A stretch of 64,000 bases of DNA from Lingula anatina (lineage: Eukaryota; Animalia; Brachiopoda): assembly GCA_051362555.1 (NCBI GenBank), contig CM120648.1:2767721-2831720 (forward strand), read 5' to 3'. Within the stretch, counting starts at the first letter, position 1, and each line of letters begins with the position of its first letter. This document shows, one piece after another, positions 11,661-59,052 of this stretch. The notes under the pieces are model-generated. The model was given only the letters and a program-made list of their open reading frames with translations, made no database searches and was not told the DNA's origin. The translations under genes and the position numbers were made by a program.

Positions 11661-11973
11661 GGGAGCAATCACATCGAGAAGAGCCGAGGTCAAGTAAGGC
11701 CGCGACCTAAATATGGCGGACCTACATGATAGAAAGACCGCTAATCCTGTAATGGTCTCTCCGGCTCTCACACGCCTCCCCACGCGTGTCCCTCGGCAGG
11801 TTGAAGTGATCTGAGATTTAATCACTGTGCCCCTGCAGGGACGACACGTGGGGAGGATTAACGGGATTAGCATTCTTCCTTTCATGTACACTAACACTGT
11901 CACTAACACTGTCACTGCCATATTTAGGTCCTGGCCTTACTAGACCTCGGCTGTTCTCGATGTGAATGCTCCC
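11661..11973. mobile_element. MITE with ~57-bp TIRs and 3-bp TSD (PIF/Harbinger-like)
   Basis: GGGAGCAATCACATCGAGAAGAGCCGAGGTC...GACCTCGGCTGTTCTCGATGTGAATGCTCCC, flanked by TAT on both sides. Confidence 0.8.
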
Positions 11974-33000: not shown

Positions 33001-35972
33001 GGTTTATTTTCTTAAAGTGATGACGAAAACTTCATAAACTGTTTTAAGCTTTCTTAGTGTGTTGAATGCTATAATTTTTGTGTAGTTTTTTATCTTCGTT
33101 TTAAAACAAATTGTTTCTAGTAACAGTGTATTATTTATTGTAGGCATTGGATTACCAGAAGATGATTGATGAGAGCAGACCTTATTGTACCTTTTCTTTG
33201 AACCCTGAATCTACAACACCATGCCCAAAGATTTTCACCGGCAAAATATTGGTGGCCCAACAGGGCCTTAAGGGTAGAGAGGCAAGGTTGTCGTCAGTAG
33301 AGCTTGATGTGTGCCGCCCTTTACATGAGGTGATGACATATTAAGATGTATTTGGTAGTGACATCAGTGTGCTTTTGGTACATACAAAATTGTATGAGTT
33401 GATTCTTAGTGAGATATAATGTTCTAGCTTATATATTTGAGAGCCATCAATGTAAACAAACCCCTGTGTTTTCTTGGAGACGAATTATCATCCTCCCCTA
33501 ACTTAAGAATTTTTTGTTTGATTGAGTAATCAATTTATAGACAAGTAGAGTTTGCAGGTCATCATCGTCACATAATAATTTTATTGATAAATAAGTACAA
33601 ATTAATTTTAATTGTTAAGTATTCATACAGTACCCTGGGTACAATGGTACGCAAAGTTCCTAATATTGTACTACATACTCATGGACATTTTGATTGTAAA
33701 ATGTTATATACACATGAAGTGAATATCTGATAATATCTTTCAGATAACAAAGGTACCTGGCACTGAACAACTCGGCATACAAGCACTCCAGTCTTCAAAT
33801 CCAGATACAAGGCTATTTTGGGGAAACCAGCCACAGAGGACCATAGAACCTTTGCAGCAGCAGTCAGTCCTAAACTCATCATCACCAGGGACCTCAGGAC
33901 CTCTGCAGCTACATTCGGTTTTGAACCCATCAGCGCCCCACCAGTGGGATCTTCCCGCCGCAGGGCTACCCTACCACCTCGCACATGGTGTTGAGGCATT
34001 TAAGCAACACCAACAACCACTCGAACAGTATGTCCATCACCAACCACCACAGTTGCATGGCGGTCATAATCCACAAACAATACCACATCTACCCCAAACA
34101 ACACATTATGGTGGTCCAGATCCTCGTCAAAAGCAAAATATTGCTATAGCAGAGCCACCATTTCCACGGGGATTGGTAAATTTTCCACAAGAACAAGCGA
34201 AACCAAACATGCTTATGCAGCAATTGCCTCAGACATGCAATAACAAATCACCAGGGGAAATTTCCCCATCAGAATTGAATTTACCCTCTCTGTCAATTCC
34301 AGCTGGTGACCATGGGCAGTCAGATAGCACTTCAATCATCACACCCGAACCAATATCTGGCTTACCTAATGCAATGGCACAATCAACGCAACTAATGCTA
34401 GAACAACAGAACTCAGCTGAGGTCAGCATCCCATCACCACAAAACAATCTTGAGCAATTAAGCTTGTCAGAATCTGCCGATCCGTCACCTTCAGGGGACA
34501 CCAAAGACCACATTCACCCGCTCCCAATAGATCCTATGCGAGTTTTACACAATGTATCCAACGTGCCATCAGTTACACCTGAAGGCCATATGGGAAAATC
34601 TGTTCTAAACCCAGAGCATCACCCACAGGAAGTTGCACAGTCATTTATTATAGCACCACTACGTGTTTCGCATTCTTCCGCTGTGTCTGAGACGGCATCA
34701 GCACCAAAAAACCAAGATTATGAGGCGTATCCAATTGTTGAAACACCATCTCAACTAGAAATTTCACAACAACAGCGACACTTTCAAGAAGAGCTACATG
34801 CGCAGCACCATCGATTCCCACAGCTTTCATCGCCACCACTACAACAACAGCAGCAGCAGCTCCCACACCCCTACGCCCTATATGCTGTATCTCAGCACTA
34901 TGGCAGACCAGATCTTTCTCAGCCACTCTGTACAGCTGCACCGCAAACAAACATGACTGTTGCATATGGTTGTGGTGCTGCTGCCAGGTGGACCGAGACA
35001 GCAGGGCAACACAATGTCTTTGTTCAAAATGTAGGCCGGCTTGAAATTCATCAAAATGGAGATCGGGAGTTGATGGGTGCTGCACCACCAGCTCATGTCC
35101 ATGTTTTGCAACGGTATCTGCCTTTGGGGGCAAAAGGACACTTGGATCGTTTTCTTAAGATCCCACAGGTGTGGGAGACTATTATATGTCAACTCCACCT
35201 ACGGAATGCTGGTTGTCCTAAAGAACCTGTCGAATTTGTCTTTTGCCATTTACAGGGCTCCTTTCAGCTACTTATATGGCTGTTGCGGAAAATTGGCGAG
35301 GGAGTAAAGAAAATCGTTGAACAACCTGAAATAGAAGTCCTGATTGATGAAGTTAGAGTAAGTTTCCTCTCACTCATAAAATAATGTTAATTTTATGGGG
35401 GTAGGGTAATACGTAAACATGTAAGTTGTTAGGTAAGAAGCAAAAAGAAACTTTTTGTTACCTTAAGCAGGGATATATTTTCACTATAACAAAGAACACT
35501 TTTATTTTCAAAATATTTTTTTGCATGTGCTTGACAATGGAAAATAAAGGTGATATACACCATGCTTTTTAGTGCCCTTTTATTTACTTTTCAGAAAGCA
35601 AGGATTCGTGAGGTTGAATGTGAAAATCTGCGCAAAAACCTGTCCTACATAGCTGATGAAGGGTTTAATATAAGGAGATTGTTAGATTTCCTTTTTTCAA
35701 AGGGCATCATCAGTGATTCAGATATGGATAAAATTAAATGCCAGCAAGCATCATCAGAGAAGTGCAGTCTACTATTACATAAGATATTGAAGTGCTCAGT
35801 GGATAAGGATCCCGTGGGGCACCTGCGGCAGTGGTTTGTTGACGAGGACCGACGTGATCTGGCAGATCTGCTGGTAGTGAACCCTGAGGATATACAGGGA
35901 TCGTATGACCCAGATGATGCCCTAAGACCTGATGAATACCAGGATGGACATCTCGCACTCAGACAAAATTGA
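27896..35972 (+). CDS. ARM-like repeat, ZU5, UPA-like, P/Q-rich, Death-like and CARD domain protein; exons 27896-28471, 28758-28896, 29227-29567, 29889-29994, 30672-31110, 31485-31635, 31875-32081, 33144-33329, 33744-35357, 35595-35972
   Basis: All ten exons join in phase with GT-AG. ARM-like: ELAEGLGVLARNDKSKAAIGQHGALPLLSRML...AAKTLWKLSF...AASGVLWTL. ZU5: GGFVYLKELGVTLVVPRGSL...SPIVVCGPHDLTFLKPVYLSFPHC. CARD: LRKNLSYIADE..IRRLLDFLFSKGIISDSDMDKI....EKCSLLLHKI...RRDLADLL. The UPA and Death-like calls rest on position and a loose pattern and are weaker. Confidence 0.8.
32311..32740 (+). repeat. Three ~40-bp intronic direct repeats (32311, 32382, ~32703)
   Basis: CAGCTTT..(GGATA)..TTTTCTTGAAGT.ATGCA occurs three times. 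Confidence 0.7.
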
Positions 35973-36218
35973 GAAGTCCTGTAGAGCTAACCGTGCATCT
36001 CTCACCATATGTGGCATTTCACTTTCTTCGGCTACAGATGAAAAACTTCCAGATTTTTTTCATCTGCAAATCTGAATATTTTGATGCCGTGGAGCTGTAC
36101 TCATGCCCTTTATACCCCGGTATAAGGCTAAAGGTACTTGGTGTTTGCATTTTTCAGGATTTTTAAAGGTCCACTTTAATCTCTGTTGAGCAGAGTTTTG
36201 AAAAAATATATGATATAA

Positions 36219-38399: not shown

Positions 38400-41300
38400 T
38401 GTGCCTTCTTTTTGTACTTTGTCTCATTTTTACCGCTGCTATTGTATTTACCGCTGCTATTGTATTTAACTCAAACAATCTGCGACCTACATATTCACAA
38501 TGACATAACATTTCGTTATACGCGACAGAAGCTAAATGCAAAGAAAAAGAAAATACATAGAAACACCCTTTGTCGGACTGGGTCTTTAAACACATTCTGT
38601 TTGCATAACGTGTCCCGCTTAGAGCAAAACATACTTTTTTCTGTGTGTTTTGCCAGGGTAAATCATACGCTTGCTATTCAATCTACTTCTTTGTCGTGAG
38701 ATGTTTGTGTTTAGTATTTTCAGCTTTTATTAACCTTCCCCGGTACCTGTCGATTTTCAATTGCAGTGACGAGAAATTGCGCAGTCACTGGAGAGGTCTA
38801 ACAGTCCCAGTGGGGCAAATTTAGGGGGACAAGAAATTAGATTATGATCATCTGAGGTTTAATCAAAACAGTGTAAACTTCTGGTGAGTTTATCAAGGGA
38901 AGTTCTACATTAATTTGACCATATAAGCTGAATTAGACAGCACCTGATGTCGTGTTTGTTTGTTTTAATGGCGTCGTGTAGCTGTGATTGGGTGTGATCG
39001 ATTATCCGTCGTCTTCCAACGGTAGCATTAGTGATAACATATGTTTTTTGACATTTATTTTGGACATCCAAAATTAAAAAACAAATACATATATGTAAAT
39101 GCAGTATACATTCTACACGTACACACACACACACACACTCTCACTCTGTGATCGATGACATATTTGTTAAATAGGCAAACGGTTAAAACAAGAGTGACAT
39201 GACAGATAAAACCAGTTTTAATAATGATATATGCGCTGCTTGCACATGCATATACAAGTATATTGTACATGTACAGATTTCCCAGACAGCAAGATGACAT
39301 CGGCATGAAGTTGTCCCAACGCCAGCTTGGTTAAAGGACTACTGTTGGCCCAACGTCTTGAAGTCAATCGCCGGCATAAGGGCAACGTATGGTTGCTCAT
39401 CGGCTCGACATAAGCTATACCGTAGGCACAATTTCAGTAAGTCAACTAGCCATGTTTGGCCAACGTCATTTGTCCAACCATTTCCCCGACATTGGGCCAA
39501 CTTCATGCCAGCGTGAGATGATGTCAATAGCTACACTTGGGGCAATGATGGTTGTTTTATTGATTACTACAAAAATCAATTGTTCTATATATATAGTAGG
39601 CATGGCAATGACTTTTTAGTTACAATTTCCCATCTGATTCAATACAAGTTAAACGTTTACATTAATAACAACATAATTAGTGGAAGTTCTTTCAGAGTTA
39701 AGAAAATACTCGTATACATGTACAGTACATGTCCAAGTACAGCATTTAGGACACATTTGATATATTTAATTGCATGATTACCTATTTTATTCATGTAAGG
39801 GATAGTGACAAAGTGCTTCGTCCCATTGACAAACTTTTTTTCTTATTTCAAACAGCCCAAGGCCTCTTAACATTTGCCACAGTAAGCCCATGGTGTGTTG
39901 GAAATTCAAACTAATTTAGTCACTCTGAAATAGTGTCCGGAAAGATGGGGACAGGTGCTAGCATCGTCGCTGGAGAGGTCCTTAAAGAAACAGTACGTAT
40001 CCTTGCGGTGCCAGACAAATCGCCGAGGCAGTCACAAAAAGACCAAAGACAGAAAGCAATCCGCCAGAGAGAGCTAGACATGTTTCGCGATAGATGCCTG
40101 CAGTTCGCCGAGTTTTTGAAACGTGTGCGTGCCACAAACTACGAACAGAGGAGGAAGGAAATACATGATGGGATTTTGTACCACCTTCGGAAGCCTTATG
40201 GTTGTTTTAGAAACCGAGAGCAGAGACTTATTTTAGGAGATGATGTAACTGAGCTCGGGCTGGTCTCCTTGTTGGTGGACTATTACAAGGCTTCATTGGA
40301 CTTTTTTGATATTAAGGCAGTGACATACTATGAAGATGGCACAGAGTGGACCACCGAACTGAGCAATTTGCGGTCTTTCTTCTGGGACTACAGTGATGCC
40401 AGTCCACAATTTGCTGAGCAACTCGCACGCTCTGGCTACTTGGAGCTTATGATGAAGGACCTAGACGCCGTACAGATCGGGATACAAAACAACACATTGC
40501 AAGAAAATGTACGTTACTGTGTTCAAAACGCCATTCTTTTGAATGTTTCGTGGTTTTTAAGACTTGATAAACTATTCTTTGTTTCATGATCATTCATAAA
40601 ACATTTAATGACTCCCTACGTCAGTATATTAATCAAACTTAGACATCCTGGAAATATTTTGAAACCAGCGGCCTTTGGTGCAAAACATCCATGAGAACTA
40701 TTTGTGATGAAATACATATTAATAATGAAAGGCAAATGTTTTATTTTCGACGAAAAGATAAATTTGTATTTTGATTAAATGAAATGTCAACACACCAAGA
40801 AATAAATAAACATGAAGCGTTTTAATTCTTGTTTTATAGAACAAAGGGACATTGGGAGCCGTACAAACAGCCATAGCTCCAGTGTACAACTGTTCAAAAC
40901 TCGACGCTATAAAAGACATTTTCCAGGAGCTTGACGTCTTGGAGAGAATCGAACCTTACTTACAGTCAACTGATGAGAGTAAGTATTCGATATCATATCT
41001 TGAGGTCTGATTTAAATAACATTATATCAGTATATTTCTATAATTGTGAAACTAAACTCGGGGAAAAGTGAAACATGCTTATTGTGGTAACTCAACAATG
41101 GTAGATACGTCCTTCAGCCACGGTTGTGCTACCTTGCGCGTTCCTTGTTTCAAGAAGTGCAGGAACACCTACTTTTACGTCATGAGCTGAGCACGTTTAT
41201 TTCAGAGATAAAAGCAGAAGCGACCTTAATCAAATGTTACATCACAGACGAACAACAAAACGATTTGTTGACAACAGACGAAACCGTATTCATGTTTCTC

Positions 41301-42150
41301 ATTAACGGACTGGAGAAAGCGCTGGAAGCGGAGAAAAGAAGATTTCGAGGGTTGTCAACATCTGAACTGGCTGAAGCATTGGGGGTACTTGCTAGACACG
41401 AGAATGATAAAGTAGCTTTAGTGCAGCACGGCGCTATACCACTTCTTGCTACTATGCTTATGTCACCTGATGAAGAAGATGTAAAACAATCAGCAAAAAC
41501 GCTGTGGAAACTTTCCCTTGATCAAGAAAACAAAGCAAAAATAAAGGTAATTTCCATAGTTTTTGATTGTAATAAACGGGATATTTTTCCCATCAAACTA
41601 TTGCAGAGTTTCGTGATTATGAGTATTGTTTGACATTTATTCCCTAAATGTATATTGCGTAAGTTGTATATGAACATCCTAAAAATGACGTTTGTAAGCC
41701 GAACGGATGAAATGAATTTCAAAACCAATTTTAAAAAGCTGAAAATGTGGTAGGTTACAGTGTTTTGAATATTCCTATGGAATAGCTATTTTGGCAGTTC
41801 ATCATTTTAGCGTATGTATCCAGTCGTGCTTCTACAAAAATGTTATATTTGGTAATTATCCCAAATTTAATGCTCTATTGTTGGGAGATGGCTTTCAACA
41901 CTTTTCAAAATGCCTACTGTTTAAGTTGGAAAACCAGTGGCAATATATTCTTCAAATATAATTTGGTGTCTATTTTAGGAGGTTGGAAATTGCATAGACA
42001 TGCTTCAAACACTTTCCCATCACTCTAGTAATGAGATAAAGAACACCGCGTCAAGAGTGTTGTTGGCACTGGAACAGAATCAGGGACAAGCTGAAGGTAG
42101 GTCGCATAAATACCATTATATAGCGTAGGGTTCAATTAAGCCTCGCTTTA
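38400..42150 (+). repeat. Segmental duplication, copy B
   Basis: Colinear with 26500-30047; similarity ends ~50 bp into the intron after the last ARM exon. Confidence 0.92.
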
Positions 42151-45100
42151 ATAAACGCGTTTATTGCGTATTTTGTGCTCCAATCTATGATCATGTTTTT
42201 TTTAAATTTTTATTGGATCTTACCCGGACATTAAAATGAAAAATTTCCAGAAAGTGAACGATAAGTACCGCATGCGCTGATAATATATTAATTAAAATTG
42301 TTGTCCTTTCAAGAAGAGTGTACAGAAAATCCCGTGAGCCTGGTGGGTCTCTAGTCGTAGAACTAATAAATAAATTAAAAAAAAAATAAATAAACAAAAG
42401 ACATGAATCAACCCCGACTTCGAGTTTCACGGGCATACCCAGAACGATGAGGATTTTCAAATAACAGTGTGAGTAGTAAGAGAGGAGTTCCAGAAGCTGC
42501 AAAACCAAGAGGCGCCATATACTTTTAATGCAGTTTTTTTAGATCGTAAATGAGGCGTAGCAAGCGAATGTTAATGACGAATGCACTTGATGGCCTGGGA
42601 TACCTACGAGGCGACGCAACAAGCAGAGAGCGGGCGGGTCTTATCGATCAAGTGGATTTGTCAACAAACTAACACTTGAAGAACGTGCAGGCGGATTTGC
42701 AAATATCGCTTTGTAAGCGAATGTCAATGACGAGGTACTTGGATACCTACAAGGTAATATCTCAAGTAGAGAGAGATAAACGGATGTGTCAGCAATCAGA
42801 CAGGCAGAGTCGACAAGGCAGCAGACTTGTTTTGCTTAAAAATAGCAGAGTCATTTTATTTCACCAAAGATGGCCATGCTGTATTATATAAGTTTTCTAA
42901 TATTTGCTATTAAAATGAAGGAAAAAAAAGTGCAAAGTCATGTCATTCGGTCGCCTATAATACCCCGATAAATATTTGACATGCAAAGGTTTAAATCTTT
43001 ATGTTTTGGTGAAAAATTGCAGAGTCATTTTAATTTTGCCAACGACTGTAGAGTTGAAACGGTGTATTATATAATTATTTTTTTATATTTTAAAATAAAG
43101 AAAAAGACCTGCAAAGCTCCACCATTTCTCGGTGTTAATACCACTCCACCATGCCAGCAAAAATTGTCATCGATGACTGCATTATTTGCTTGCGTTTGGT
43201 CAGACACTTAATTACTAATGTACAAATCGAGTAATGCAAAACAACGTACATGGTTCACGACCAAGAAAAAACAAAAAAGAACTGTGCTGTGAACTTTAAA
43301 CAAGCAGTGTCTTATGCTGAACGCTGTCATGCATAGCGCCTTCGAGCTATATAACATTCAATGTTCACATGCCTCGCTCGTGAATTCAAATATTGCAAAC
43401 ATGTCCAGGCATGTTTATGTTTACTCAGATAAGGTGGACCTCTGGTCAACAAAGATATACCACCGACCAGGGGAAACTATAGCTATCAATGCTTTTTTTA
43501 ATTGTTGTTTTCCTTTTTTAAAGTCTTATTATTATTATTTTTTTGCGTATTTAAAATTTTATAACATCATTTTCTGTGTCTTTGAAAATCTTATCTTGAC
43601 TGTTTTGATTACAGTCGCGTCCCTTCTTTACAAATACCAATAAAATGACCCTATGAAATAAATGAGATATACTGAAAGTGAGGGAGGAGGATGTAAAAAG
43701 GAGGATGATTAAGCGAGGGGGAGGAGGGACAGTTAGTGAGGAGGAGGGTGTAAATATATAGGTTTAATATAAATAGCTTACTCCTTGCTCTAACTTCTCA
43801 TTCTTTGACAAGATGCTGAAGTGTCCAGAGTGCCAAAAAACCTTCTCCAGAAAGGACAACTTGAATAGACACGTAATGAGTGTACACCAAGCGAAAGCTC
43901 AGCTTAATCTGCAGGCTGGTAGTGAGTGTGGACCACTCATGTCCCCATTTACTGCCATGGTGACTGGTCCGACTGGCAGTGGAAAATCGGTTTTCGTGAA
44001 ACGATTGATTGCACACGCCCAATCAATGATTACACCGCGCCCACAGAAAATAACTTGGTGTTACAATATCTGGCAACATTTATACGAAGTCATGCTGGTC
44101 GAGGCAAAGGGTTTTATTACGTTTCATCAAGGCATTCCTTCCTATATCCAAGATGACGATTTCTTTGATCCTAAAGTGAACAATCTCATTGTATTCGACG
44201 ACCTGTTTGCCGAGGTGGCGGTTGATAGCAGAATACGTAACTTATTTACCAAAGTGTCACACCATCGCAATGTTAGCGTCATACTTATTAACCAAAACCT
44301 TTTTCCCAGAGAGAAGGAAGCCAGGGGCCGGTTTCACAAAGCAGTAGTTAGTTAGAACAACTAACTACTGAACTACCTCGCTAACGAGCAAACTTAGCGA
44401 TTTTCGAAGGGTGTTTCACGAAGCAGTCGTTAACTCAACGAGTCGGCTACAGAGACGGATGGTAGTGAATCGTAGCCATGAGGAGGAGAGGTTGCCTGCT
44501 TAAAAGCTCGGAGGAATTCCTTAACCTCACCGGGGTACATCTGCTGGGCTAATGTTCTGACCTGCAATGTGTCTCTAGGGCTTTTAAAGAGGACGAGATA
44601 ATGACAGTTCAAGGAGATGGTTCTGGGGCCGGTTTCACAAAGCAGTAGTTAGTTAGCGATCGGTAGTTAGCCTCTCGCTAGTTATAGTGCCGTTTCACGA
44701 AGCAGTCGCTAGTTCTCTCGCTCGTTATTGTCTCGTTGTTGCCTTGGATATTTAACAACTGGTCAGACCAGTCGCTAACTCTAGAGTTTCATCGTACGCA
44801 TGCGTAATGAGTGAAATAAAAAGGTTGCTTAGTTACCGTTGTCTGTCGTTTGTCTTTGTATCCAATATGGCGGCTACTTTTCTTGCTATCCGTACCGCCA
44901 GACGGCAACGTAGACTACGACGTTTTCATGAAAGGCAGAATCTATTAGTCAAAAAGGTTTCATTTATGCTAGATCCTGAAATTTGATTTACCTGTTGACT
45001 GTTTATGTCGTCATACACATGGGACAGCTTGTGTGCTCCTTCATCTCTGTTCATGGTGTGTTTCTTCCTTCTTATCCAGATCGATTCCAAAACTTCTCAA

Positions 45101-47562
45101 ACCCATCCTGGGGGGAGGGGGCGAGAGGGGCTAACAAGTCATCATCAAGACTGAGATAATTACCTGTTCACCTTCACCTGAACAGGTAATTCAGTTGTGA
45201 CCAAGTCTGTCAGAGTGAACAGACGAAACAGTCAACAGGTAAATCAAATTTCAGGATCTAGCATAAATGAAACCTTTTTGACTATCAAAACTAAGATCCA
45301 ATGAAACTGTTTTCACAGAATCTATTAGAATATACACACGATGATGCAATTTACGAGAGGTTGCGCCTAGCTGTGACAAAAAGAGCGGCAAAAAGGTGGT
45401 GGAGATCCTTTACGACGACCTCAAAGCAGACGTTCTTATGCATTTCCAGCCACCACAAATTGGAGAGTTAGTGCTTTCGTGACACTTTTACGCAAGAGTT
45501 CCACTTCCGGCAGACGGTTTCGAGACTACGGTGAGTAACGAGAGAACTAACGACCGAACTTTACGACTGAACTTAGCGATGAGTTAACGACTGCTTCGTG
45601 AAACACCCTTCGAAAATCGCTAAGTTTGCTCGTTAGCGAGGTAGTTCAGTAGTTAGTTGTTCTAACTAACTACTGCTTTGTGAAACCGGCCCCTGGCTTC
45701 CTTCTCTCTGGGAAAAAGGTTTTGGTTAATAAGTATGACGCTAACATTGCGATGGTGTGACACTTTGGTAAATAAGTTACGTATTCTGCTATCAACCGCC
45801 GCCTCGGCAAACAGGTCGTCGAATACAATGAGATTGTTCACTTTAGGATCAAAGAAATCGTCATCTTGGATATTGGAAGGAATGCCTTGATGAAACGTAA
45901 TAAAACCCTTTGCCTCGACCAGCATGACTTCGTATAAATGTTGCAAGATATTGTAACACCAAGTTATTTTCTGTGGGCGCGGTGTAATCATTGATTGGGC
46001 GTGTGCAATCAATCGTTTCACGAAAACCGATTTTCCACTGCCAGTCGGACCAGTCACCATGGCAGTAAATGGGGACATGAGTGGTCCACACTCACTACCA
46101 GCCTGCAGATTAAGCTGAGCTTTTGCCTGGTGTACACTCATTACGTGTCTATTCAAGTTGTCCTTTCTGGAGAAGGTTTTTTGGCACTCTGGACACTTCA
46201 GCATCTTGTCAAAGAATGAGAAGTTAGAGCAAGGAGTAAGCTATTTATATTAAACCTATATATTTACACCCTCCTCCTCACTAACTGTCCCTCCTCCCCC
46301 TCGCTTAATCATCCTCCTTTTTACATCCTCCTCCCTCACTTTCAGTATATCTCATTTATTTCATAGGGTCATTTTATTGGTATTTGTAAAGAAGGGACGC
46401 GACTGTAATCAAAACAGACAAGATAAGATTTTCAAAGACACAGAAAATGATGTTATAAAATTTTAAATACGCAAAAAAATAATAATAATAAGACTTTAAA
46501 AAAGGAAAACAACAATTAAAAAAAGCATTGATAGCTATAGTTTCCCCTGGTCGGTGGTATATCTTTGTTGACCAGAGGTCCACCTTATCTGAGTAAACAT
46601 AAACATGCCTGGACATGTTTGCAATATTTGAATTCACGAGCGAGGCATGTGAACATTGAATGTTATATAGCTCGAAGGCGCTATGCATGACAGCGTTCAG
46701 CATAAGACACTGCTTGTTTAAAGTTCACAGCACAGTTCTTTTTTGTTTTTTCTTGGTCGTGAACCATGTACGTTGTTTTGCATTACTCGATTTGTACATT
46801 AGTAATTAAGTGTCTGACCAAACGCAAGCAAATAATGCAGTCATCGATGACAATTTTTGCTGGCATGGTGGAGTGGTATTAACACCGAGAAATGGTGGAG
46901 CTTTGCAGGTCTTTTTCTTTATTTTAAAATATAAAAAAATAATTATATAATACACCGTTTCAACTCTACAGTCGTTGGCAAAATTAAAATGACTCTGCAA
47001 TTTTTCACCAAAACATAAAGATTTAAACCTTTGCATGTCAAATACTTATCGGGGTATTATAGGCGACCGAATGACATGACTTTGCAGTTTTTTTCCTTCA
47101 TTTTAATAGCAAATATTAGAAAACTTATATAATACAGCATGGCCATCTTTGGTGAAATAAAATGACTCTGCTATTTTTAAGCAAAACAAGTCTGCTGCCT
47201 TGTCGACTCTGCCTGTCTGATTGCTGACACATCCGTTTATCTCTCTCTACTTGAGATATTACCTTGTAGGTATCCAAGTACCTCGTCATTGACATTCGCT
47301 TACAAAGCGATATTTGCAAATCCGCCTGCACGTTCTTCAAGTGTTAGTTTGTTGACAAATCCACTTGATCGATAAGACCCGCCCGCTCTCTGCTTGTTGC
47401 GTCGCCTCGTAGGTATCCCAGGCCATCAAGTGCATTCGTCATTAACATTCGCTTGCTACGCCTCATTTACGATCTAAAAAAACTGCGTTAAAAGTATATG
47501 GCGCCACTTGGTTTTGCAGCTTCTGGAACTCCTCTCTTACTACTAGTGTGTTATAGAGAACT

Positions 47563-47626
<64 letters not shown>

Positions 47627-47904
47627 TGATTTCAGCCACCAGGGTTATCACAAAGGAGGACATCGAATTTTTGAGTCAGCACTTGGGTAACCGCTGGAAG
47701 CAACTAGCAAGGAAACTGGACATTCCTGAAGGTGAAATAGAAATCATAATCCATGACCATAATGTGTCTGGACTTAGGGAGATGATACACCAAATGTTAA
47801 ACAGATGGAAGAACAGAGAGTCCACAAAAGCCACAGCTAAAGCTTTGGCTGAGGCACTATGTGAAATAGGAGAAACCCGCATTGCTGCTATGCTGCCATT
47901 GTAG
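39945..47904 (+). CDS. ARM-like repeat and Death domain protein; exons 39945-40508, 40840-40978, 41206-41546, 41979-42096, 47636-47904
   Basis: Exons 1-4 are paralogous to the upstream gene (WTTELSNLRSFFWDYSDASPQFAEQLARSGYL identical). The phase-1 donor after 42096 matches the phase-1 acceptor at 47636, giving a canonical Death domain LSQHLGNRWKQLARKLDIPEGEIEII..DH...LREMIHQMLNRWKNRE...ATAKALAEAL. The start codon is inferred. Confidence 0.82.
43813..44355 (+). pseudogene. C2H2 zinc finger fused to Polinton packaging ATPase, truncated copy in the left arm
   Basis: CPECQKTFSRKDNLNRHVMSVH; Walker A GPTGSGKS; Walker B LIVFDDL; LFTKVSHHRNVSVILINQNLF. Runs into a Harbinger TIR at 44325. Confidence 0.85.
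44626..45692 (+). mobile_element. Internally deleted PIF/Harbinger DNA transposon
   Basis: TIRs GGGCCGGTTTCACAAAGCAGTAGTTAGTTAG / CTAACTAACTACTGCTTTGTGAAACCGGCCC; TSD CTG (44623-44625, 45693-45695); relic transposase start at 44867, MAATFLAIRTARRQRRLRRFHERQNLL|EYTHDDAIYERLRL, once the nested insert is removed. Confidence 0.88.
44946..45314. mobile_element. Small TIR element nested in the Harbinger
   Basis: ~59-bp inverted repeats TAGTCAAAAAGGTTTCATTTATGCTAGATCCTGAAATTTGATTTACCTGTTGACTGTTT (from 44946) and its complement (ending 45284); the insert is bracketed by the direct repeat CAGAATCTATTAG (44936-44948, 45315-45327). Confidence 0.8.
47566..47623. repeat. (TA)n microsatellite just upstream of the Death-domain exon acceptor
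   Basis: Direct reading. Confidence 0.95.
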
Positions 47905-51087: not shown

Positions 51088-53932
51088 TAAATTTTGATAT
51101 TAAAATGCCATACCAGGCTTTGGAGTCCGACTGGGTGAGGGAGTGTCCTGAGCGGGTTCAGCGACACCTAGCAGAGTCTGTTCACGTGCCTCTCCTTGCG
51201 TCTGCCACTCCTCATAGGACAGAATAGCTTCAAACAGGCTCTCGGCGTTCGGGAAGTCGTCCCCGGTGGTCCGCAGTCTGTTCTCAATGACTTTTCTCAC
51301 TGTGTCCCTGGGATAACCCATCTGCAGTACTGCCTGGACAATGGGGATGTCCAGTCTGGCCTCGATTTCTCGGGCCTCTACCACGTACTGACCGGCTGTA
51401 ATGGACAAAATACATTGGTCCATGCATAATATCTTTTCTAACAATTGTTACTGGTCCCCGACAGTGATAAGCACTAAGGGCCATGAACTACATGTATAGT
51501 GCATATTCTGACGCATGATTCTGAGCCCAATTTTTTTCCAAGTTGCAAACGTTTTAAATGGGGTGTATTCTGCGTATCATTTGTGTTTTATAACTTGTTG
51601 AGACAGACGCAATCGGTTCAGCTTTTCAATCATAGGATTTATTAGACAGTCAAAGAACTAGACTAATGGGCTGAAGTAGACAGCCATGACTACGTTGCAG
51701 AAGGTTACCTTCTCGTCGTCTGACATTTGTTATAGCTGCTTGGTTTTGAGAGGTCAACTGCGGCTGCTGACATAAGAAAATAATATAATATTATATTCAG
51801 AAATAGACAAAAAGTGGAACGGATTATCACATATACCCGGTAGTAGAAGGTGATTGAAAGCATAGCAACTCATGTATAAATCATGTATGTATGTATGTAC
51901 GTAGTTTTCAATGAACTTTATGATATGGCATGTATTAGATGCAAAGCAAGAATATTATGCCCTGAAATACAATATAAAAGTGCAAGAGGCTGTTTTACAA
52001 TACACAGCAATTATGCCCTGGAATACAATGTAATTGTACAATTTGTTCTTTTACAATACACTAAATAAAAAATTCTGTTACTCTTTAAGATATAAGTAAA
52101 TTAAATTAAGCACACATATTACGAACACCAATGAACTTACTCTTACCGTGTCGTTGCTGTGGCATGCGAACCGCTGTTGAACATGTCGAATAAACTCCTC
52201 CCCCTTGCGCTGAAGGACAAAATCACAAAAAGGGAACCAGCGCGCATGCTCAGTCCATGGGTCATCTTGTGGCTCCCAGTTTCTCAATCCCCCATCACAG
52301 TAAAAGCACTTCACGTTGTCTGAAATTCCTGTGCACAGCAAAAATAAAATTTAAATAATCGTTAATTGATCTCCTCCTTTTTGAACTTATACTTCTATTA
52401 AAAGAGAGGCATAACCTCGCGTTATGGACTTTACTCCTAAAGTCGGTAGAAAAAGTAACCTTCGAACAGATTAACATTACATACCTTAAATAGCACAGGA
52501 TTGAGTATTACTAGTACGTATAATCCTTTCATGACTTAATGTCGAATAGTTTTGTTTGCTGTGCGTTTTGAATTGGCCACTAACACCCCATTTCCATAGA
52601 TTTTTAGATCGATCTATCCCTGTGGGGAGTCTCACTAGATTACTGTCAGCTTGGCCGGCTTAAGCGTCTGTCCCGCCTACTACAAGCTGTAAGGGGGCAA
52701 TTAACTATGGTGCCCGCTCGGCTGACTGCAATTTAGCGTGAACCCCCAGGGAGTTAGGTCGATCTAAAACTTAATCTTTAGATCGATCTTATTCTCTGGG
52801 AAAGCACCTTAAGTTTCATTTGCCATACGCTCTTGAAAAATTAACTGATATTTACCAATAATCATACATTGGTGAATGGTCGATCCCTACAAAAAGGATG
52901 TCGGACAATAAAAATCGATCAAAAACTGGGACAAAAATCGGTCCTCAGCCAGCACCAAGAAAAAAAAAACCTGGACAAAATGTAATAACATTAACCAGAA
53001 TAGTAAAACATCAAAATACTGGGCAAAGAAAACTGTGACTCTCACCGTGAAGTTTTTGAAGATATTCACATCAGGCTGCATGGGGAAAAACTCAACAGAA
53101 ATGATAGAACTGAGTTATATCAATTTTCCACTTCTCTGGGAGGGGGTCGAGTAGGAAGAGGGGGCACCTGACTAACTACCTCACCTTAATGGTGACAGGT
53201 TGTAATACTTATCACAGCCCTCATTTCCCTGATGTAGTCTGATTGTCAGCGGACTAAATATCAGCTTATTTTTTCCGGAGCTATTGACAAATGCTTACTC
53301 TTTTAACCTGATCACTGTAATTGCAAACACACAATATCATTAAATACAATGATTTTCCTTTGCTTGCTCGTTTTGTTTTTGGAACATATTCATTTCTTAA
53401 TAAAATACATATACTGTTACACCTGCGTGAATAAAAATAATTAAGTTTCCCGTCCTCAACGAAGGAATACCGTGACCCATGCCAACCTGTCCAAAGAAAC
53501 ATTCCGAACCTGCCACACGGGACACTTATCCTATGGGACCTTGTCGTGCTAATAGTGCGTATCTTACCAGCGTAGAAGAAGCCGGCCTTAGCCAGGTTGA
53601 CAGGGTTCTGAGCCCAGTGAGCAGACCAAGTTGCAAACGTTTTTTCTCGTACACTTTCATTTGCGAATCTTTCGTGCTTTGGTCTTTCCGTTAGGTTTCC
53701 TCCATGAAATATAGCTAGGTAAAAAGAAATGATATCAAAGATGATCGAATGAATTCTCATTCCGACGACATTCTAGTTCTTTCCACCTCTAGTCTGACTA
53801 CGGTATAACATATTAGATTAAATAATGCCCACCAATCGACAATATTAAAATTAAACAATATAAGCATGTTATAGTTATATTTGGAGAAGCGCAATTTGTA
53901 GACTCACCATTTAAGTTTTCTCTACGAAACAT
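50367..53932 (-). CDS. Inhibitor of apoptosis protein (BIR-UBA-RING; BIRC2/3/7-like); exons 53932-53908, 53714-53568, 52328-52147, 51766-51709, 51395-51114, 50951-50874, 50581-50367; further upstream exons possible
   Basis: BIR: R..TF..W......[49 protein letters not shown]: [20 protein letters not shown]...[19 protein letters not shown]: [35 protein letters not shown]. Exon phases are compatible. The start codon is uncertain because an acceptor precedes the first short exon. Confidence 0.9.
51047..51086. repeat. (ATTT)n microsatellite
   Basis: Direct reading. Confidence 0.9.
52585..52808. mobile_element. ~220-bp MITE (PIF/Harbinger-like), copy 1
   Basis: Colinear with 59863-60076 (GTGGGGAGTCTCAC...GAACCCCCAGGGAGTTAGGTCGATC); imperfect TIRs with TAA/TTA flanks. 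Confidence 0.75.
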
Positions 53933-54444
53933 AGCTGGTTAAAAATAAAGAATCACTTTGATGATCGCTGATGAAACTTAACGAAAAGAATAACTGTCCG
54001 TTTTAGTGCCGGTACTTCAGCAGCTGTTGAACTTGTATCTCACTGCAGTATGTATGTACATGTATTTTCCAATAAAAGGGGAGGTTATGTGTCAAAGAAC
54101 ACTACGAAAGAGCTTTTATATATGCCGACCGATATTTCATAATTCATGCTTGGCTTTATCAAAAGATGGGTCACAGACAAGTTCATGTGAATAATTGACA
54201 GTACTTCAGTCATTGTCACTTTGCAACTTAACCTCCCTATAGCATACAATGTTCATGTATCTATTCATGTCGGTTCACAACACGCTGAAAAAACATGCTT
54301 TAACGATCGACGCTTTATAGGTCATGTAACAAAAGGAAGGGGGCTCGGCCTAATCTACACATATTGTTCCGGGTGTTGTACAAAGAAGAAATCTCATAAA
54401 TGGTGTTTTATACACGTATACAAAGGTAGTCGTTTAGATACCGG

Positions 54445-54607
54445 TGTCATGTACCAGAAAGTCACCTGTAACAGATTCCGCTTCCCATTCATTTGTACAG
54501 GTGAGCCTCGCCCTAGATTTCGACCCACTTAGGTCAGACTAACTCTAACCATTATGACTTCATGGAGGGGGGGACTTTCTGTCACACGGACCTTCAGTTT
54601 CGTAAAA
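54445..54607. mobile_element. Short non-autonomous element with CCGG target duplication (Ginger1-like)
   Basis: Flanked by CCGG (54441-54444, 54608-54611) and starts TGT. A paralogous empty site TTTAAATA-CCGG-TACTTC lies at 57073-57090. A related terminus (GGGGGACTCTCTGTCACGTTACA-CCGG) lies at ~165-205. Confidence 0.65.
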
Positions 54608-55211
54608 CCGGTACTTTAGCCGCTGTTCAACCTGTACCTCCCTGCAGTGCATGTGTTTGTTCGTTATTGTGAGACAGAATGGTATCAAACAACACGCTAA
54701 AAAGCTTTCGTCGACCGACTTCTTACAGTTTATGAAAAGGTAAAGGGTTAAAGTCAACAATTGAGGCCAGGTGCTCCAGCAGCTGTTGAACCTGTACATC
54801 CCTGTAACCTACATGTATTTTCCAAACATCGGGGTTGCTAACACGCTGAACATCGATCGATGTTTTATGGTGTATATAATTCTATTCATACCTTATTAGA
54901 TTCATTCATCTGAATCAGGGCAAGTACAATGCCTTCAATATACACTTATTTCAAACTTGTGACTTTAAAGCTTTTCTAGTGTAATCTAAATCAAACAGGC
55001 GTTTTACGCTTACCATTATAAAGGGGAAATGTCAACCAAACGACAAAAATAAAATAACCAAAAAGCACATTAAATTAAGATATTGGGAATTTTTCATTCC
55101 GCATATTTTTGGGAAGACCTAGTGGCAAATTCACCATGCGTGTGAATACTCAATCAAAGTACAGAATAACAAAGTTACACGTTTACTGTTTTTATAGATA
55201 TTACATGATAT

Positions 55212-55447
55212 GCCTAGATTACATTTACACGGGCGCCGTGCGATGAAATTGTCCGTGCGACATTTTTTTGAAATCGTAAGGAGCTACGGGCTACGCCGAG
55301 TATATTTACACTACATGACATTAAATCAGTACGATTCGGTGCTATTTCGCACGGCCACCGTCTACCTCCACTCAGACGCCGTACGAAAAGGGTATTACGG
55401 GCAGTATACGTGCACCGTACGGACATTGCATTTGAATGTAATCTAGC
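55212..55447. mobile_element. Palindromic MITE
   Basis: G.CTAGATTACATT ... AATGTAATCTAG.C termini; internal CGTA/TACG-rich repeats. Confidence 0.7.
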
Positions 55448-56313
55448 CAATAGAGAATCCTCTTTTGATGTGCAGCTGCGCGTACTTAGTATCTAAGGGT
55501 TCAGTGCTGGTACATGTATAAAAACAATAGTGATAGCTGGGTGTACAAATAGTTAGAATAAATAGAAAAAAATATTCAAGCCTAGGAATCTAGGAGCAGC
55601 AAAAAACTTACTCAACTAACCAAAGTAATTCTAGAAGTGTGAATAGAAATAAAATATAAATAAATAGCCATGGTAATAACGTGTGACTTTACGTGTACAC
55701 GTATATTTTAGCACAGTGGCCAATTTTGGTGACACTAACCTTTAAAATCAACGCAAAAAAAGGATGCTGTGGTTAAAAAACAAACTGGGGGGGGGGGGGG
55801 GGGGGGTCAGAACAATTGTGCCTATACAATTGATACAGAGGATTTGTACTTACAGGTCGAATTTCTAGAAAATCGTGCCAAGAACCTACTTTTTGTAGGT
55901 CATGCTGGGCGAATGTATCAAGAGGGACTCGGCTTAACCTGAACAATTGAGGTCGGGTATAATACAAAGAAGAAAGCTCATGAATGAAAATATATAGCAA
56001 GACTTGATGTTTTCCACGCTTATACAAGACCTAATCTCCCTGAAAAGAATAACTATATGATAAAGATACCGTCACGCCAACCTGTACTCCTGTATTTCCG
56101 AGATGCCAGATATGCGTCAATGAGCGCGCAGAAAGAGCAAATATTCTTATTCATATACGTGGGTTTTAAAAAGTCGGGCGTTATACAAAGAATATATCTC
56201 GTAAATGAAGTTGTATTCTTTGTGTATGCTGGACTTATTTTTTTCACCCGGTTTAGTTGTATCGGCGCGTCGCACTGTGTTTAATCAACGCCACGCCACG
56301 CCACGCGTGTCTA

Positions 56314-56444
56314 CCCTCTACCAGGGTGGCAGATAATATAGGGAAAATGGGGGAAATCCAGATATAGTGAAAGGACCGTCTATATATCTTAAGACATATC
56401 TGTGGATTTCCCGTGAAAAGTCAATCTGTGGCCCTGGTAGAGGG
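56314..56444. mobile_element. MITE with CCCTCTACCAGG TIRs and TA flanks
   Basis: TA-CCCTCTACCAGGG...CCCTGGTAGAGGG-TA; same TIR family as 60563-60784. Confidence 0.75.
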
Positions 56445-58075
56445 TAGTGGCAGATATTATAGGGAAAAAGACTCACCATCAAGGTTTTCTCCACAGAACA
56501 TAGCTGGTCAGAAATAAAGGCCCAATTTGATGATCGGTGATTAAAAAAATAATTACCCCTTAAAGTTAAAACTAACACAGTATGAAAGAATGATTGTATA
56601 TGCAAGAACAACAAGGTTATGCAAACTGATGACTACATATACATTAATAAGGTAAAATGCCCGATAAAGCAGAGTAGTACTACTTACTGGCGCTCTCACT
56701 AGCTGCATAGCTGTTTCCGTATGTATACAATGGTGAGTTTCGCTCCATTAAAGCGATATCAAAGAAAAAAATTAGTAAGCCTGACTTAGATTTTGTCTTT
56801 TTTTTCTCTATATCTTCTAGATTTTAGCACGCCGATGAATCGCGTAGTGCAGGGGGAAACCGAGGCAAAGTACATAACTAGGTCATACTGGCCAATAGAA
56901 ACTATCGATAAGGGGGGGATCGAAACTATTAATATGCGCTCAGCTTAACCTGAACAATTGAGGCCGGGTGTAATATAAAGAAGAAATCTCATAAATACAG
57001 TCATATAGGATGACTTCATGTTTTCAACATGTTTACAAGGTACTCGTTTCTCTGAAATGAATAACTATCTTGTTTAAATACCGGTACTTCAGGCGCTGTT
57101 CAACCTGTACACCCCTACCTACACATAAGACCTACCAGTGTTACTCATACACTGGACCTTCCTTTCTGCGTCCTTTCAGCCACCATGAAATTTGGCATCG
57201 CTGTGGTTTTAATAAGGAGTCACGAGCATTGATTTTGTATCAGAATAAATGTTCAATGATCGGCCAGTTGTCGGCACGTAAAATATTATAAATTTTTAAC
57301 TCTCAAATGGGGCCGTACTCCTGGACGCAGAGAGGACGCCGTCTAGTGTAAGGGGGGCTTTAGGAAAAGGGAAACAAAGCATGCTGAAAGACACATGATT
57401 TAATCGAACGCCCTTTTGAAGGACAGCGATTGTTCAAACTGTAACCTACATGTATGTGGGTTTTATCAAAAAGTAAGAACATGATAACGGGTACGCAGTT
57501 GGTAATCATAATGCCTGGCCGTTTGTGAATGAAAAATAATATTTATATAATAAACATATGTACTAGTAAAATTACTCATAAAATATTCTATCTAAGCAGC
57601 AAGATAAACCTTGGTATGATTATAAATTTACCATAAACATACTATAAATATATAGGTACAAGCATATGTTACAAAAAAAAAATGATATGTTCAAACTTAG
57701 GAGGGAGAATACAGTTACATAGCCGTTTACATGGCTGTTTAAAGCCAGTTTGATGACATAGATAATTATGATTAATGACAATTACATAAAACTAGATAAG
57801 TAAATAAGTTACACAGATATAAATATTGTGCCATGGTCAGTCCCACTGCTGAGTCACTTCTCATAACAGTGGGACCATACATTGGCATTTTATGGGATAT
57901 ACTAAGAGTTACCAAGCAGAGCAACCACTTCATTTCTTTTCTTGAATCAATTTATTATAAAGTTGAAGAGTAACACTAAAATATATTTGTTGGCACTGTT
58001 AAATACATGGCATAATTGACTGTCTGGTGACCTAGTATCAGTATTTAGGATTGAGGTATGATTAATTATATGATA

Positions 58076-58086
58076 GGGGAATCCCC
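58076..58086. promoter_or_regulatory. Candidate NF-kB site GGGGAATCCCC
   Basis: Matches the GGGRNWYYCC consensus, 5' of an IAP gene; function is inferred only. Confidence 0.4.
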
Positions 58087-58233
58087 CTATTTGAAGTGCA
58101 GCAGTACTGTATTCAATATTTAAAGGCCACAGCAGACAGCTGGGTATACACACATAAAGCAGTCAACACGCGCTGATAAACAATCTGACAAAGGAATTCT
58201 TGTAGTGTAAATGCAAATTATCTCAGCGGCCTA

Positions 58234-58547
58234 CCCGCACGAAAATGCAGTAGTATCGAAGTAGCAAAAAAGCATTAACGCAGTTGTGGTGTGGAGCATA
58301 TTTGCAGTAGAATTGCAGCATAGCCTACTGCAATTCTACTCCAAAAAGTACATAGGTTTGTACAGAGAGAAGCATTAATGCAGTAGATTAGCAGCATGAT
58401 AGAAGCATGTTTCAAATATGCTAATAAGCTCCCAAATCGAAGCAGATTTGAAGCATGTTTGCAGTATGATTGCAGTAGTCTACTGTGGTTTTCAGTATGA
58501 TTGCAGTAGTCTACTGCGCTGGAGTATCTACTGCGTTTTCTTGCGGG
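58234..58547. mobile_element. MITE with CCCGCA TIRs, TA flanks and internal TGCAGTAG/CTACTGC repeats (CACTA/EnSpm-like)
   Basis: TA-CCCGCACGAAAATGCAGTAG...CTACTGCGTTTTCTTGCGGG-TA. Confidence 0.8.
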
Positions 58548-59052
58548 TATTTTCGGTATTTTTGTGATAATAACCTCGAATACAAACGTTAACCTTTAGT
58601 GCACCTTTTACGCAGACAGAATGTTACATATGAAATGAGAAAAATGCCCACCAAACGCCAAAAACAGAATTGAACAATAAAATCATATTTGGGGGAAGGC
58701 TTAGTGGCATTTAGGTTTTCTCAATGAAACATATAACCAGGTAGAAATAAAGTCTCACGTTGATGATCAATGATGAAAGTTAACGAACGCGGTATGGACG
58801 TATAATTTTGATTTCAATTTTTTAAATATAGACAGTGACAGCACGGTTATGTTAACTGATAAAGGCATTGAGTAAAATACGCGATAGAGCAGAGAGTAAG
58901 GTACTTACGGACTCTTTCATTTACTACACAGCTTCCGCCTGACTCACCCCCAGTGGCCGATGCCGTCGCCCCGCTGTGGCTGTCACTGAGCTAGGGCTAG
59001 CTACAAAACAACTTTACTCTCATTACAAATGTAAAATACATATTCATATTCA

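What the first reader, a model, noticed from the sequence alone, without database searches (positions are those of the whole stretch)
42472..47544. Integrated copy-back (snap-back) defective genome of a Polinton/Maverick
Seen: AGTAGT/ACTACT termini, a perfect 6-bp TSD (AGTGTG) and two ~1.97-kb inverted arms differing at only about ten sites by eye. The arms are not ordinary TIRs. Each contains the packaging-ATPase gene, and the left arm ends ~113 bp inside a copy of the Harbinger that interrupts the ATPase on the right. This fixes the order of events: Harbinger insertion into the Polinton ATPase, then fold-back copying of one end to make the other, then integration of the palindromic product with a fresh TSD. 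Known: Polintons make 6-bp TSDs and are proposed to replicate by protein-primed synthesis with TIR panhandles. Inference: this is a defective-interfering-like genome, replicated and integrated in trans by a helper, and so a fossil of the extrachromosomal Polinton cycle carrying a host transposon.
Basis: partly seen in the sequence, partly recalled or inferred. Interest (0 to 1): 0.85.

Follow-up and report, generated by a model that had tools for sequence, protein, structure and literature searches.

The report
Mirror-armed defective Polinton carrying a transposon
This 5-kb remnant of a virus-like Polinton transposon has two 2-kb mirror-image arms, one likely copied from the other after a small host transposon landed in its DNA-packaging gene, and the copying more likely happened by DNA repair where the element already sat than during free, virus-like replication.

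Summary
The structure is real. The 5,073-bp element has AGTAGT/ACTACT ends, a 6-bp TSD, and 1,966-bp inverted arms differing at 11 sites. A 1,067-bp Harbinger-like MITE with a 3-bp TSD splits a Polinton-type packaging ATPase. The left arm stops 113 bp inside that MITE, then 34 untemplated bases follow. Contigs of two other individuals cross the left junction, and in one the arms stand cleanly at about two per junction. All four runs hold related copies without the MITE. So 'MITE first, then one end copied from the other' holds. Three corrections: each arm holds only the first 170 codons of the ATPase; the 1.14-kb loop makes it copy-back, not snap-back; and the TSD cannot be shown to be fresh. 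Repair in place leaves the same picture, and depth suggests one locus, with no amplification. Best reading: in-place TIR-templated repair (0.5). Rival: copy-back during extrachromosomal replication, then helper integration (0.33). The inner junction was not tested in reads. Gene-bearing 2-kb Polinton TIRs and mobile Polintons with TE cargo are in print. This scan noted gene-less palindromic Polintons in other genomes (unchecked).

The parts
42466..42471 (.). Left copy of the 6-bp target-site duplication AGTGTG
42472..44437 (+). Left arm, 1,966 bp, beginning AGTAGT; inverted copy of 45580-47544; inferred to be the copied arm
   Evidence: left junction crossed by contigs of X1 and X2 (table 8)
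42828..43116 (+). Two subterminal direct repeats of about 110 bp, 71% alike (42828-42937, 43002-43116), mirrored at 46901-47188
43813..44322 (+). N-terminal 170 codons of a C2H2-zinc-finger + A32/IVa2 packaging ATPase, left copy, broken at the MITE
44325..44437 (-). 113-bp inverted copy of one end of the Harbinger-like MITE; marks where copying stopped or started
44438..44471 (.). 34-bp filler at the switch point, no template found in the window
44472..44624 (-). Second piece of the ATPase (51 codons, ending at the PHGY motif); single copy; about 30 further residues of relatives are absent
44626..45692 (.). Harbinger-like non-autonomous element (MITE), 1,067 bp, 31-bp perfect TIR, 3-bp TSD CTG at 44623-44625 and 45693-45695; high-copy in the genome
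   Evidence: summed depth up to several hundred times the flank in most of its bins, and empty-site joint; family name from end signatures (recalled)
44936..45328 (.). 380-bp insertion nested in the MITE, with a 13-bp direct repeat (44936, 45316) and a 59-bp perfect inverted repeat (44946-45004, 45226-45284)
   Evidence: joint 44935-45316 skipping 380 in 4 of 4 runs
45695..46204 (-). N-terminal 170 codons of the ATPase, right copy, broken by the MITE
45580..47544 (-). Right arm, ending ACTACT; inferred template of the left arm
47545..47550 (.). Right copy of the TSD
42097..47635 (+). Predicted phase-1 intron of a host armadillo-repeat + death-domain gene that holds the element
   Evidence: GT donor and AG acceptor in matching phase; Arm and Death hits; splicing not tested

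Best explanation
This is a dead, single-locus Polinton/Maverick remnant whose left 1.97 kb was likely rewritten as an inverted copy of its right end by host break repair at the place where the element already sat, so the 6-bp TSD would be the parent's old one. Shown: Polinton-type ends and TSD; a MITE with its own 3-bp TSD inside the ATPase; related copies without the MITE; the left arm ending inside the MITE; a 34-bp filler; loss of everything beyond ATPase codon 51 of the second piece. Inferred steps: (1) a Polinton integrates in a host intron and decays; (2) the MITE jumps into its ATPase; (3) a break removes the interior up to 44472; (4) synthesis templated on the element's own right end covers the 1,966 bp between the terminus and a point 113 bp inside the MITE, primed either by the left TIR invading the right TIR or by the broken end folding back about 1.1 kb; (5) the ends are joined through the filler on one side and TIR homology on the other. 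The product has no polymerase, integrase or capsid gene. It would need a helper to move, and there is no sign that it has.
For: One locus: in X1 the arm-exact contigs, including the one that runs from the ATPase into the MITE, stand at 1.87-2.23 times the contig that crosses the insertion junction; in X3 an arm contig stands at 2.24 times the matching flank; in X2 the ATPase|MITE contig is 2.15 times the junction contig. So no separate MITE-bearing parent and no second palindrome is needed in these three individuals. The in-place model needs no lost donor. The switch point has a 34-bp filler with no template in the window, a common mark of host end-joining (recalled). TIR extension by repair from the other TIR, giving TIR1-F1-F1-TIR2, is described for resident Galileo copies, and that paper says expansion of inverted repeats has been reported for Polintons (PMC3573991, Discussion). 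Four ATPase sites listed carry the window's letter only at two-arm depth in X1, and 3 of these 4 are first or second codon positions, as expected if the copy had decayed in a chromosome before the arm was duplicated. Two of the 10 arm substitutions lie in the first 58 bp (P about 0.03, post hoc), which would fit a retained older tip.
Against: Arm differences are spread evenly (4 in the outer 650 bp, 6 in the rest; P=0.74). If the private changes are decay at this site and the outer 650 bp of both original TIRs had been kept, about 13 differences are expected there against 4 seen (P=0.003). Private letters shared by both arms reach to 73 bp from the tip (42544). So the simplest version, with the old left TIR left in place, is disfavoured; the arm had to be rewritten nearly to the tip or converted later. 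That test assumes a 650-bp native TIR, which is not known. In X2 the ATPase|MITE contig is 3.15 times the outer flank contig, and its outer-arm contigs are only 0.56-1.1 times the junction contig, so extra MITE-bearing copies in that individual are not excluded. Contig depth is a rough measure. A donor copy could simply be rare in the population. No unrearranged parent at this site was seen among three carriers.
Confidence: 0.5

Rival explanations
1. Copy-back defective genome. A MITE-bearing Polinton was replicated outside the chromosome by a helper's protein-primed polymerase. Synthesis broke off at 44472, restarted about 1.1 kb back on the same molecule and ran off the end. The palindromic product was integrated here by the helper's integrase with a new TSD.
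For: The map is exactly breakpoint, loop, re-initiation site and stem (definitions in PMC6140465). On a linear molecule one fold-back suffices. Arm differences are even along the whole length and private letters are shared to within 73 bp of the tip. Copies with an uninterrupted ATPase site stand at roughly 3.5-6 flank units in 4 of 4 runs, so helpers may have existed. Polintons with TE cargo and without polB appear to have stayed mobile in Pieris (10.1101/2025.02.07.637071, section 13). Earlier unchecked notes describe multi-copy palindromic Polinton derivatives in other animals.
Against: No amplification and no separate MITE-bearing donor in X1 or X3. A 34-bp untemplated filler is not what one polymerase switch gives. 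The TSD does not date the rearrangement. Interference was not observed. Whether any related copy is autonomous was not tested.
Confidence: 0.33
2. The parent family natively has long TIRs that include the ATPase start. The MITE hit one TIR copy, and arm-to-arm conversion plus a deletion carried part of it to the other arm.
For: Polintons with about 2-kb TIRs that hold core genes in two copies are reported (10.1101/2025.02.07.637071, section 12). Related contigs cover every bin of the arm, and depth shows no doubling over an outer short TIR (table 2). The ATPase lies 1.34 kb from the end here, whereas a polymerase gene lies upstream of it in 16 of 20 long related loci.
Against: The complete relative L020 has a TIR of about 0.67 kb and its ATPase 8 kb inside. 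Depth of relatives drops after about 43130 in X3 and X7, a weak hint of a shorter native TIR. A deletion and a filler are still needed, so it adds steps.
Confidence: 0.12
3. Assembly artefact: a fold-back or a misjoin of two separate copies.
For: No contig spans the element, and the inner junction and right junction were not tested in reads. One left-arm letter (44216) was seen in none of the 4 runs (table 3).
Against: Matching TSD (P about 2e-4) and unique flanks; 11 arm differences; left junction crossed in X1 and X2, a different study from the likely source; left-arm-only letters at about one-copy depth in X1 (42930: 103 against 96) and X2 (43890: 84); arms at about 2 per junction; an untemplated filler; splice sites in matching phase across the element.
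Confidence: 0.04

Closest known systems
Polintons/Mavericks (Polintoviricetes; name of the class recalled)
   Same: 6-bp TSD, short terminal tandem repeat (AGTAGT), inverted ends, A32/IVa2 packaging ATPase. Related ATPases sit beside a B-family polymerase (16 of 20 long loci) and an rve integrase (17 of 20). Complete relative L020 (15,051 bp) has the same AGTAGT/ACTACT ends. Family features from PMC4196379 and 10.1101/2023.08.22.554363.
   Different: 5 kb instead of 13-25 kb; no polymerase, integrase or other core gene; ATPase broken and 1.34 kb from the end; arms of 1.97 kb exceed the quoted 100-1,500 bp TIR range and end inside a host transposon.
Pieris/Euchloe Polintons with about 2-kb gene-bearing TIRs, and polB-less Polintons with TE cargo (10.1101/2025.02.07.637071)
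   Same: Core genes duplicated inside 2-kb inverted ends; host TEs inside a Polinton.
   Different: Those are long, multi-copy and mobile, with hexon and adenain in the TIRs. This one appears single-locus, and its arm boundary is marked by a partial TE copy, which gives the direction and order of copying.
Galileo 2RT elements: TIR extension by recruiting internal sequence (PMC3573991)
   Same: Non-autonomous copy with TIRs lengthened by inverted duplication of internal sequence; the proposed repair mechanism gives this map.
   Different: Galileo is a P-superfamily cut-and-paste element without an extrachromosomal replicon; extensions cited there are a few hundred bp.
Copy-back defective viral genomes (PMC6140465)
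   Same: Stem from one terminus, unique loop, helper needed for replication.
   Different: Described mainly for negative-strand RNA viruses and defined by replication and interference; neither is shown here.
PIF/Harbinger non-autonomous elements (MITEs)
   Same: The inner element has a perfect 31-bp TIR, a 3-bp TSD, no coding capacity and a high copy number.
   Different: TSD is CTG/CAG, not the TWA quoted for plant Tourists (PMC12595863); CWG targets for animal Harbingers are recalled. No transposase partner was identified.

Membership tests
Polinton/Maverick (autonomous) | 5-8 (usually 6) bp TSD | tested here: met
   AGTGTG on both sides
Polinton/Maverick (autonomous) | Inverted ends with a short terminal tandem repeat | tested here: met
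   AGTAGT/ACTACT; same ends in complete relative L020
Polinton/Maverick (autonomous) | Packaging ATPase of the Polinton type | tested here: met
   Pox_A32 and Adeno_IVa2 above cut-off; relatives lie beside polymerase and integrase in 14 of 20 long loci; broken here
Polinton/Maverick (autonomous) | Protein-primed polymerase B and retroviral-like integrase | tested here: not met
   tblastn with polymerase, integrase and other core ORFs of L020 and L035 finds only the ATPase in the window; 0 of 19 other frames of the element gave a relevant Pfam family
Polinton/Maverick (autonomous) | Length 13-25 kb with capsid and protease genes | tested here: not met
   5,073 bp; no such ORF. Filed as a defective derivative, not an autonomous member
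Non-autonomous Polinton family (mobilised in trans) | Several copies of the same rearranged structure with different TSDs | tested here: inconclusive
   Depth fits one locus in X1 and X3, ambiguous in X2; no genome held; inner junction not tested in reads
Copy-back defective (interfering) genome | Terminal stem plus loop from one end of the parent | tested here: met
   1,966-bp stem, 1,142-bp loop
Copy-back defective (interfering) genome | Made by the viral polymerase, replicated by a helper, interferes with it | not testable with these tools
   No free copies or amplification data; only contigs were laid
Snap-back (hairpin) defective genome | Little or no loop | tested here: not met
   Loop 44438-45579; copy-back and snap-back differ in loop length
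PIF/Harbinger MITE (inner element) | Short perfect TIR, 3-bp TSD, empty site, high copy number | tested here: met
PIF/Harbinger MITE (inner element) | Ends shared with an autonomous Harbinger (transposase + Myb protein) | not tested
   No genome held; assignment from end signatures, recalled

The most novel reading that the evidence does not exclude
A host-transposon-tagged fossil of the free Polinton replication cycle: a chromosomal Polinton picked up a MITE, was replicated outside the chromosome by a helper, folded back on itself like a copy-back defective virus genome and was integrated afresh. Fold-back during protein-primed replication would then be the general source of gene-bearing Polinton TIRs and of palindromic Polinton satellites, and this copy would give its breakpoint and restart site to the base.
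Probability: 0.33. Interest if true: 0.7.

Novelty: new variant of a known kind. Interest (0 to 1): 0.42.

Why it matters
How Polintons replicate is still a model without direct observation, and how some acquire 2-kb gene-bearing TIRs is unexplained in the section I read. Here a host transposon marks the DNA, so the order (insertion, then copying) and the direction (right end to left end) can be read off. If the junction turns up at other sites, it is natural evidence for a helper-replicated linear intermediate that folds back. If an unrearranged allele turns up at this site, it shows that long Polinton TIRs arise by ordinary repair and that arm identity does not date an insertion. As a single dead copy it is a clean example rather than a new system.

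Tried and rejected
No whole genome is held, so copies with other TSDs could not be listed. Empty site from the tandem paralogue of the host gene (27893-36000): similarity ends at the exon before the insertion, so no empty site is visible. X7 (S4) has a flank haplotype about 8% diverged and no cover at 42451; X3's second haplotype (9% diverged) leaves the window at 42171. These show neither an empty site nor absence. No RNA holder was listed, and no RNA run was laid. Source of the filler: no match above 11 nt in the window; it holds the reverse complement of the last 6 nt before the break (1.2% of shuffles for that exact word, 30% for any 6-mer of the 29 nt before; post hoc), so it is not counted. 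It is not the ATPase continuation in any frame. Priming through the MITE's own TIRs was rejected: it would give a loop of MITE only, without the second ATPase piece. Harbinger alternative transposition was rejected: neither switch point is at a MITE terminus and the outer end is the Polinton terminus. Native TIR length from depth: unresolved. Viral contigs gave no locus. Solved-structure search gave only P-loop matches. The arm's non-coding DNA matched none of 80 related loci. The by-place and by-sequence look-ups of earlier findings and one word look-up were empty. Searches for a printed copy-back Polinton: 'Polinton' + 'defective interfering' gave 1 review (listing only); of 55 papers with two of polinton/copy-back/snap-back/fold-back, none of the 20 listed contains 'polinton'; searches gave nothing closer than the papers cited. 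Searches found no paper on palindromic products of protein-primed replication; such products for phi29 and adenovirus are recalled only. The library lacks most subscription papers and Repbase, and bioRxiv supplements could not be seen (the Pannagram extended data may bear on TIR origin).
Full report
Observation. The element spans 42472-47544 (5,073 bp). It begins AGTAGT and ends ACTACT, and AGTGTG flanks both ends. The chance of that 6-mer match from flank composition is about 2e-4, and the symmetry stops at the termini. The arms are 42472-44437 and 45580-47544: 1,966 bp with 10 substitutions and 1 indel, 0.5% apart (range 0.2-0.9%). The loop between them is 1,142 bp.

Anatomy, read from the right end inwards on the minus strand. 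First come 1.34 kb without a recognisable gene, holding two 110-bp subterminal repeats. Then the first 170 codons of a protein with a C2H2 zinc finger and an A32/IVa2 ATPase. The nearest Atlas cluster has the same pair of domains and is eukaryotic (score 0.99, Pox_A32 on 41% and zf-C2H2 on 39% of 66 members). Then a 1,067-bp element (44626-45692) with a 31-bp perfect TIR and CTG on both sides. Then 51 more ATPase codons (44472-44624). The two pieces match abutting stretches in relatives, for example residues 4-122 and 123-173 of 204 in P0001; all 22 proteins match both pieces, and about 30 C-terminal residues are missing here. Then 34 bp with no template in the window. Then the inverted copy starts, 113 bp inside the MITE end, and runs out to the left terminus. 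So each arm carries part of the ATPase, not the gene, and the loop makes this a copy-back, not a snap-back, geometry (PMC6140465, passages).

Is it a Polinton? Of 80 metagenome loci with a related ATPase (the best 80 of 252 confirmed in a scan cut at 12 of 64 parts), 20 are 7 kb or longer. Of these, 16 carry a B-family polymerase upstream, 17 an rve integrase downstream, and 14 both. L020 is a complete 15,051-bp element with the same AGTAGT/ACTACT ends, a TIR of about 0.67 kb and the ATPase 8 kb inside. One of 72 scored ORFs has the in-frame zinc finger (L001). No polymerase, integrase or other core ORF of L020 or L035 matches the window. TSD, TIR range and the racket-like replication model are from PMC4196379 (passages) and 10.1101/2023.08.22.554363 (passages). 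The element is a defective Polinton derivative.

Independent sequence data. Ten DNA runs of one organism hold the stretch or part of it. Contigs of four runs (four samples, three studies) were laid on 41700-45570. X3 matches the flank without a difference over 680 bp and may be the source of the assembly, so it is not independent. X1 and X2 cross the left insertion junction on flanks 0.6% different from the window. In all four runs a contig joins 44321 to 44624 on opposite strands: related copies lack the MITE at this place, at roughly 3.5-6 flank units. The MITE is high-copy, and copies without its 380-bp nested insert exist in 4 of 4 runs. Arm-exact contigs stand at 1.87-2.23 times the junction contig in X1, including the contig that runs from the ATPase into the MITE (1.94), and at 2.24 in X3. 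In X2 that contig is 2.15 times the junction contig but 3.15 times the outer flank contig, and outer-arm contigs are 0.56-1.1 times the junction contig. A homozygous carrier with arm-specific contigs would explain most of this, but extra copies are not excluded. Left-arm-only letters appear at one-copy depth in X1 (42930) and X2 (43890). One left-arm letter (44216) appears in no run, and none of these three appears in X3; contigs drop rare variants. Depth of contigs is rough, and the tables were cut (296 letter rows and 4,386 pieces not shown). The inner junction and the right junction were not tested in reads, and no record spans the element. Together with the TSD, an artefact is unlikely (0.04).

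What is fixed and what is not. The MITE has its own TSD and empty sites exist, so it inserted into the ATPase. The left arm holds only 113 bp of it, so the left arm was copied from the right side afterwards. The third step does not follow: a resident copy that is rewritten from its own far TIR keeps its TSD. Marzo et al. describe this for Galileo: a break in one TIR is repaired from the other, the tract runs past the TIR, and internal sequence appears inverted at both ends. They add that expansion of inverted repeats has been reported for Polintons (PMC3573991, Discussion read whole; I did not trace the cited source).

Mechanism, weighed. In place (0.5): break, synthesis on the element's own right end, joining through filler and TIR homology. 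For it: apparently one locus, no donor needed, an untemplated filler (end-joining mark, recalled), and signs of decay before duplication. Among the 40 rows shown, four ATPase sites carry the window's letter only at two-arm depth in X1, and three of them are first or second codon positions. Against it: the arms are evenly diverged, and private letters are shared to 73 bp from the tip. If those are decay at this site and both old 650-bp TIRs had been kept, 13 outer differences are expected and 4 seen (P=0.003). The arm must have been rewritten almost to the tip or converted later. Two substitutions in the first 58 bp fit a kept tip (P about 0.03, post hoc). Outside the chromosome (0.33): one fold-back on a linear molecule gives the whole arm at once, which fits the even divergence. 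It needs a MITE-bearing donor that is not seen, and leaves the filler unexplained. Native long TIR plus conversion (0.12) is kept because depth shows no clear step at a short TIR and the ATPase lies unusually near the end. Both switch points lie within about 155 bp of the MITE's ends, which hints (inference) that the MITE provoked the event under either model.

What is known. Polintons with about 2-kb TIRs that carry core genes twice, and polB-less Polintons with LINE or LTR cargo that seem to have amplified, are reported in butterflies (10.1101/2025.02.07.637071, sections 12 and 13 read; extended data not seen). Fragmented PLVs and virophages that keep TIRs and TSDs, and TEs inside them, are reported in a protist (10.64898/2026.07.28.741278, passages). 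Polinton TIR remnants drive rearrangements in C. elegans (10.1101/2024.01.15.575659, passages). Anolis has a 17.5-kb Polinton with a 584-bp TIR and no non-autonomous copies (PMC3014272, passages). PMC6431247 and PMC12595863 were seen as passages. I found no paper that describes a copy-back Polinton; the founding papers and Repbase were not seen, and non-autonomous Polintons in Repbase are recalled. Three earlier notes of this scan describe gene-less palindromic Polinton-ended elements in other genomes, two as multi-copy families; they are unchecked AI notes, and I used them only to keep the rival's probability up.

Host context. The element lies in a predicted phase-1 intron (42097-47635) between an armadillo-repeat exon and a death-domain exon, 85 bp upstream of the acceptor. 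Splicing was not tested.

Verdict. A real, likely single-locus defective Polinton whose TIR was extended to 1.97 kb by copying one end, with the order and direction marked by a host MITE. It works like a copy-back genome in shape; it is not shown to be one in origin. New variant of a known kind; interest 0.42, and 0.7 if the junction is found at other insertion sites.

Noticed in passing
window 44936-45328: A 380-bp insertion nested in the MITE, bounded by a 13-bp direct repeat and holding a 59-bp perfect inverted repeat; MITE copies without it occur in 4 of 4 runs. Its type is unknown.
   Followed up: partly
window 26538-29995 and 38459-42084: Tandem paralogues of an armadillo-repeat gene, about 72-80% alike. 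The first continues into ZU5 (30638) and a weak CARD match (35535); the second appears to go straight to a death domain (47636).
   Followed up: partly
window 43627-43677: A 50-bp purine-rich stretch inside the arm, just upstream of the ATPase, is shared with a very high-copy repeat (summed depth up to about 60,000 at 43652).
   Followed up: no
window 41700-42231: Flank haplotypes in X3 and X7 differ from the window by 8-9% plus gaps, while carriers differ by 0.6%: a very polymorphic host.
   Followed up: partly
window 1252-3333: 693-aa ORF with a helix-hairpin-helix start and a PNMA/gag-like region, probably an LTR-retrotransposon gag; a 248-bp perfect direct repeat lies at 431-678 and 5399-5646.
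   Followed up: no
window 51100-53772 (minus strand): BIR and UBA matches of an inhibitor-of-apoptosis gene, with local repeats at 53800-58800.
   Followed up: no
window 11661-11973: A 313-bp element with 57-bp inverted arms (91%), probably another MITE.
   Followed up: no
L020:1-15051: Complete Polinton in a metagenome contig: AGTAGT/ACTACT ends, TIR about 0.67 kb, order polymerase, ATPase, integrase.
   Followed up: partly
L066:67-772, L043:1-460, L074:1-727: Related ATPases lying 0.3-0.6 kb from an inverted repeat of 110-220 bp; L066 shows no polymerase or integrase in 7.2 kb. Possibly other deleted derivatives.
   Followed up: no
window 47567-47624: A (TA)n microsatellite between the right TSD and the predicted splice acceptor.
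   Followed up: no
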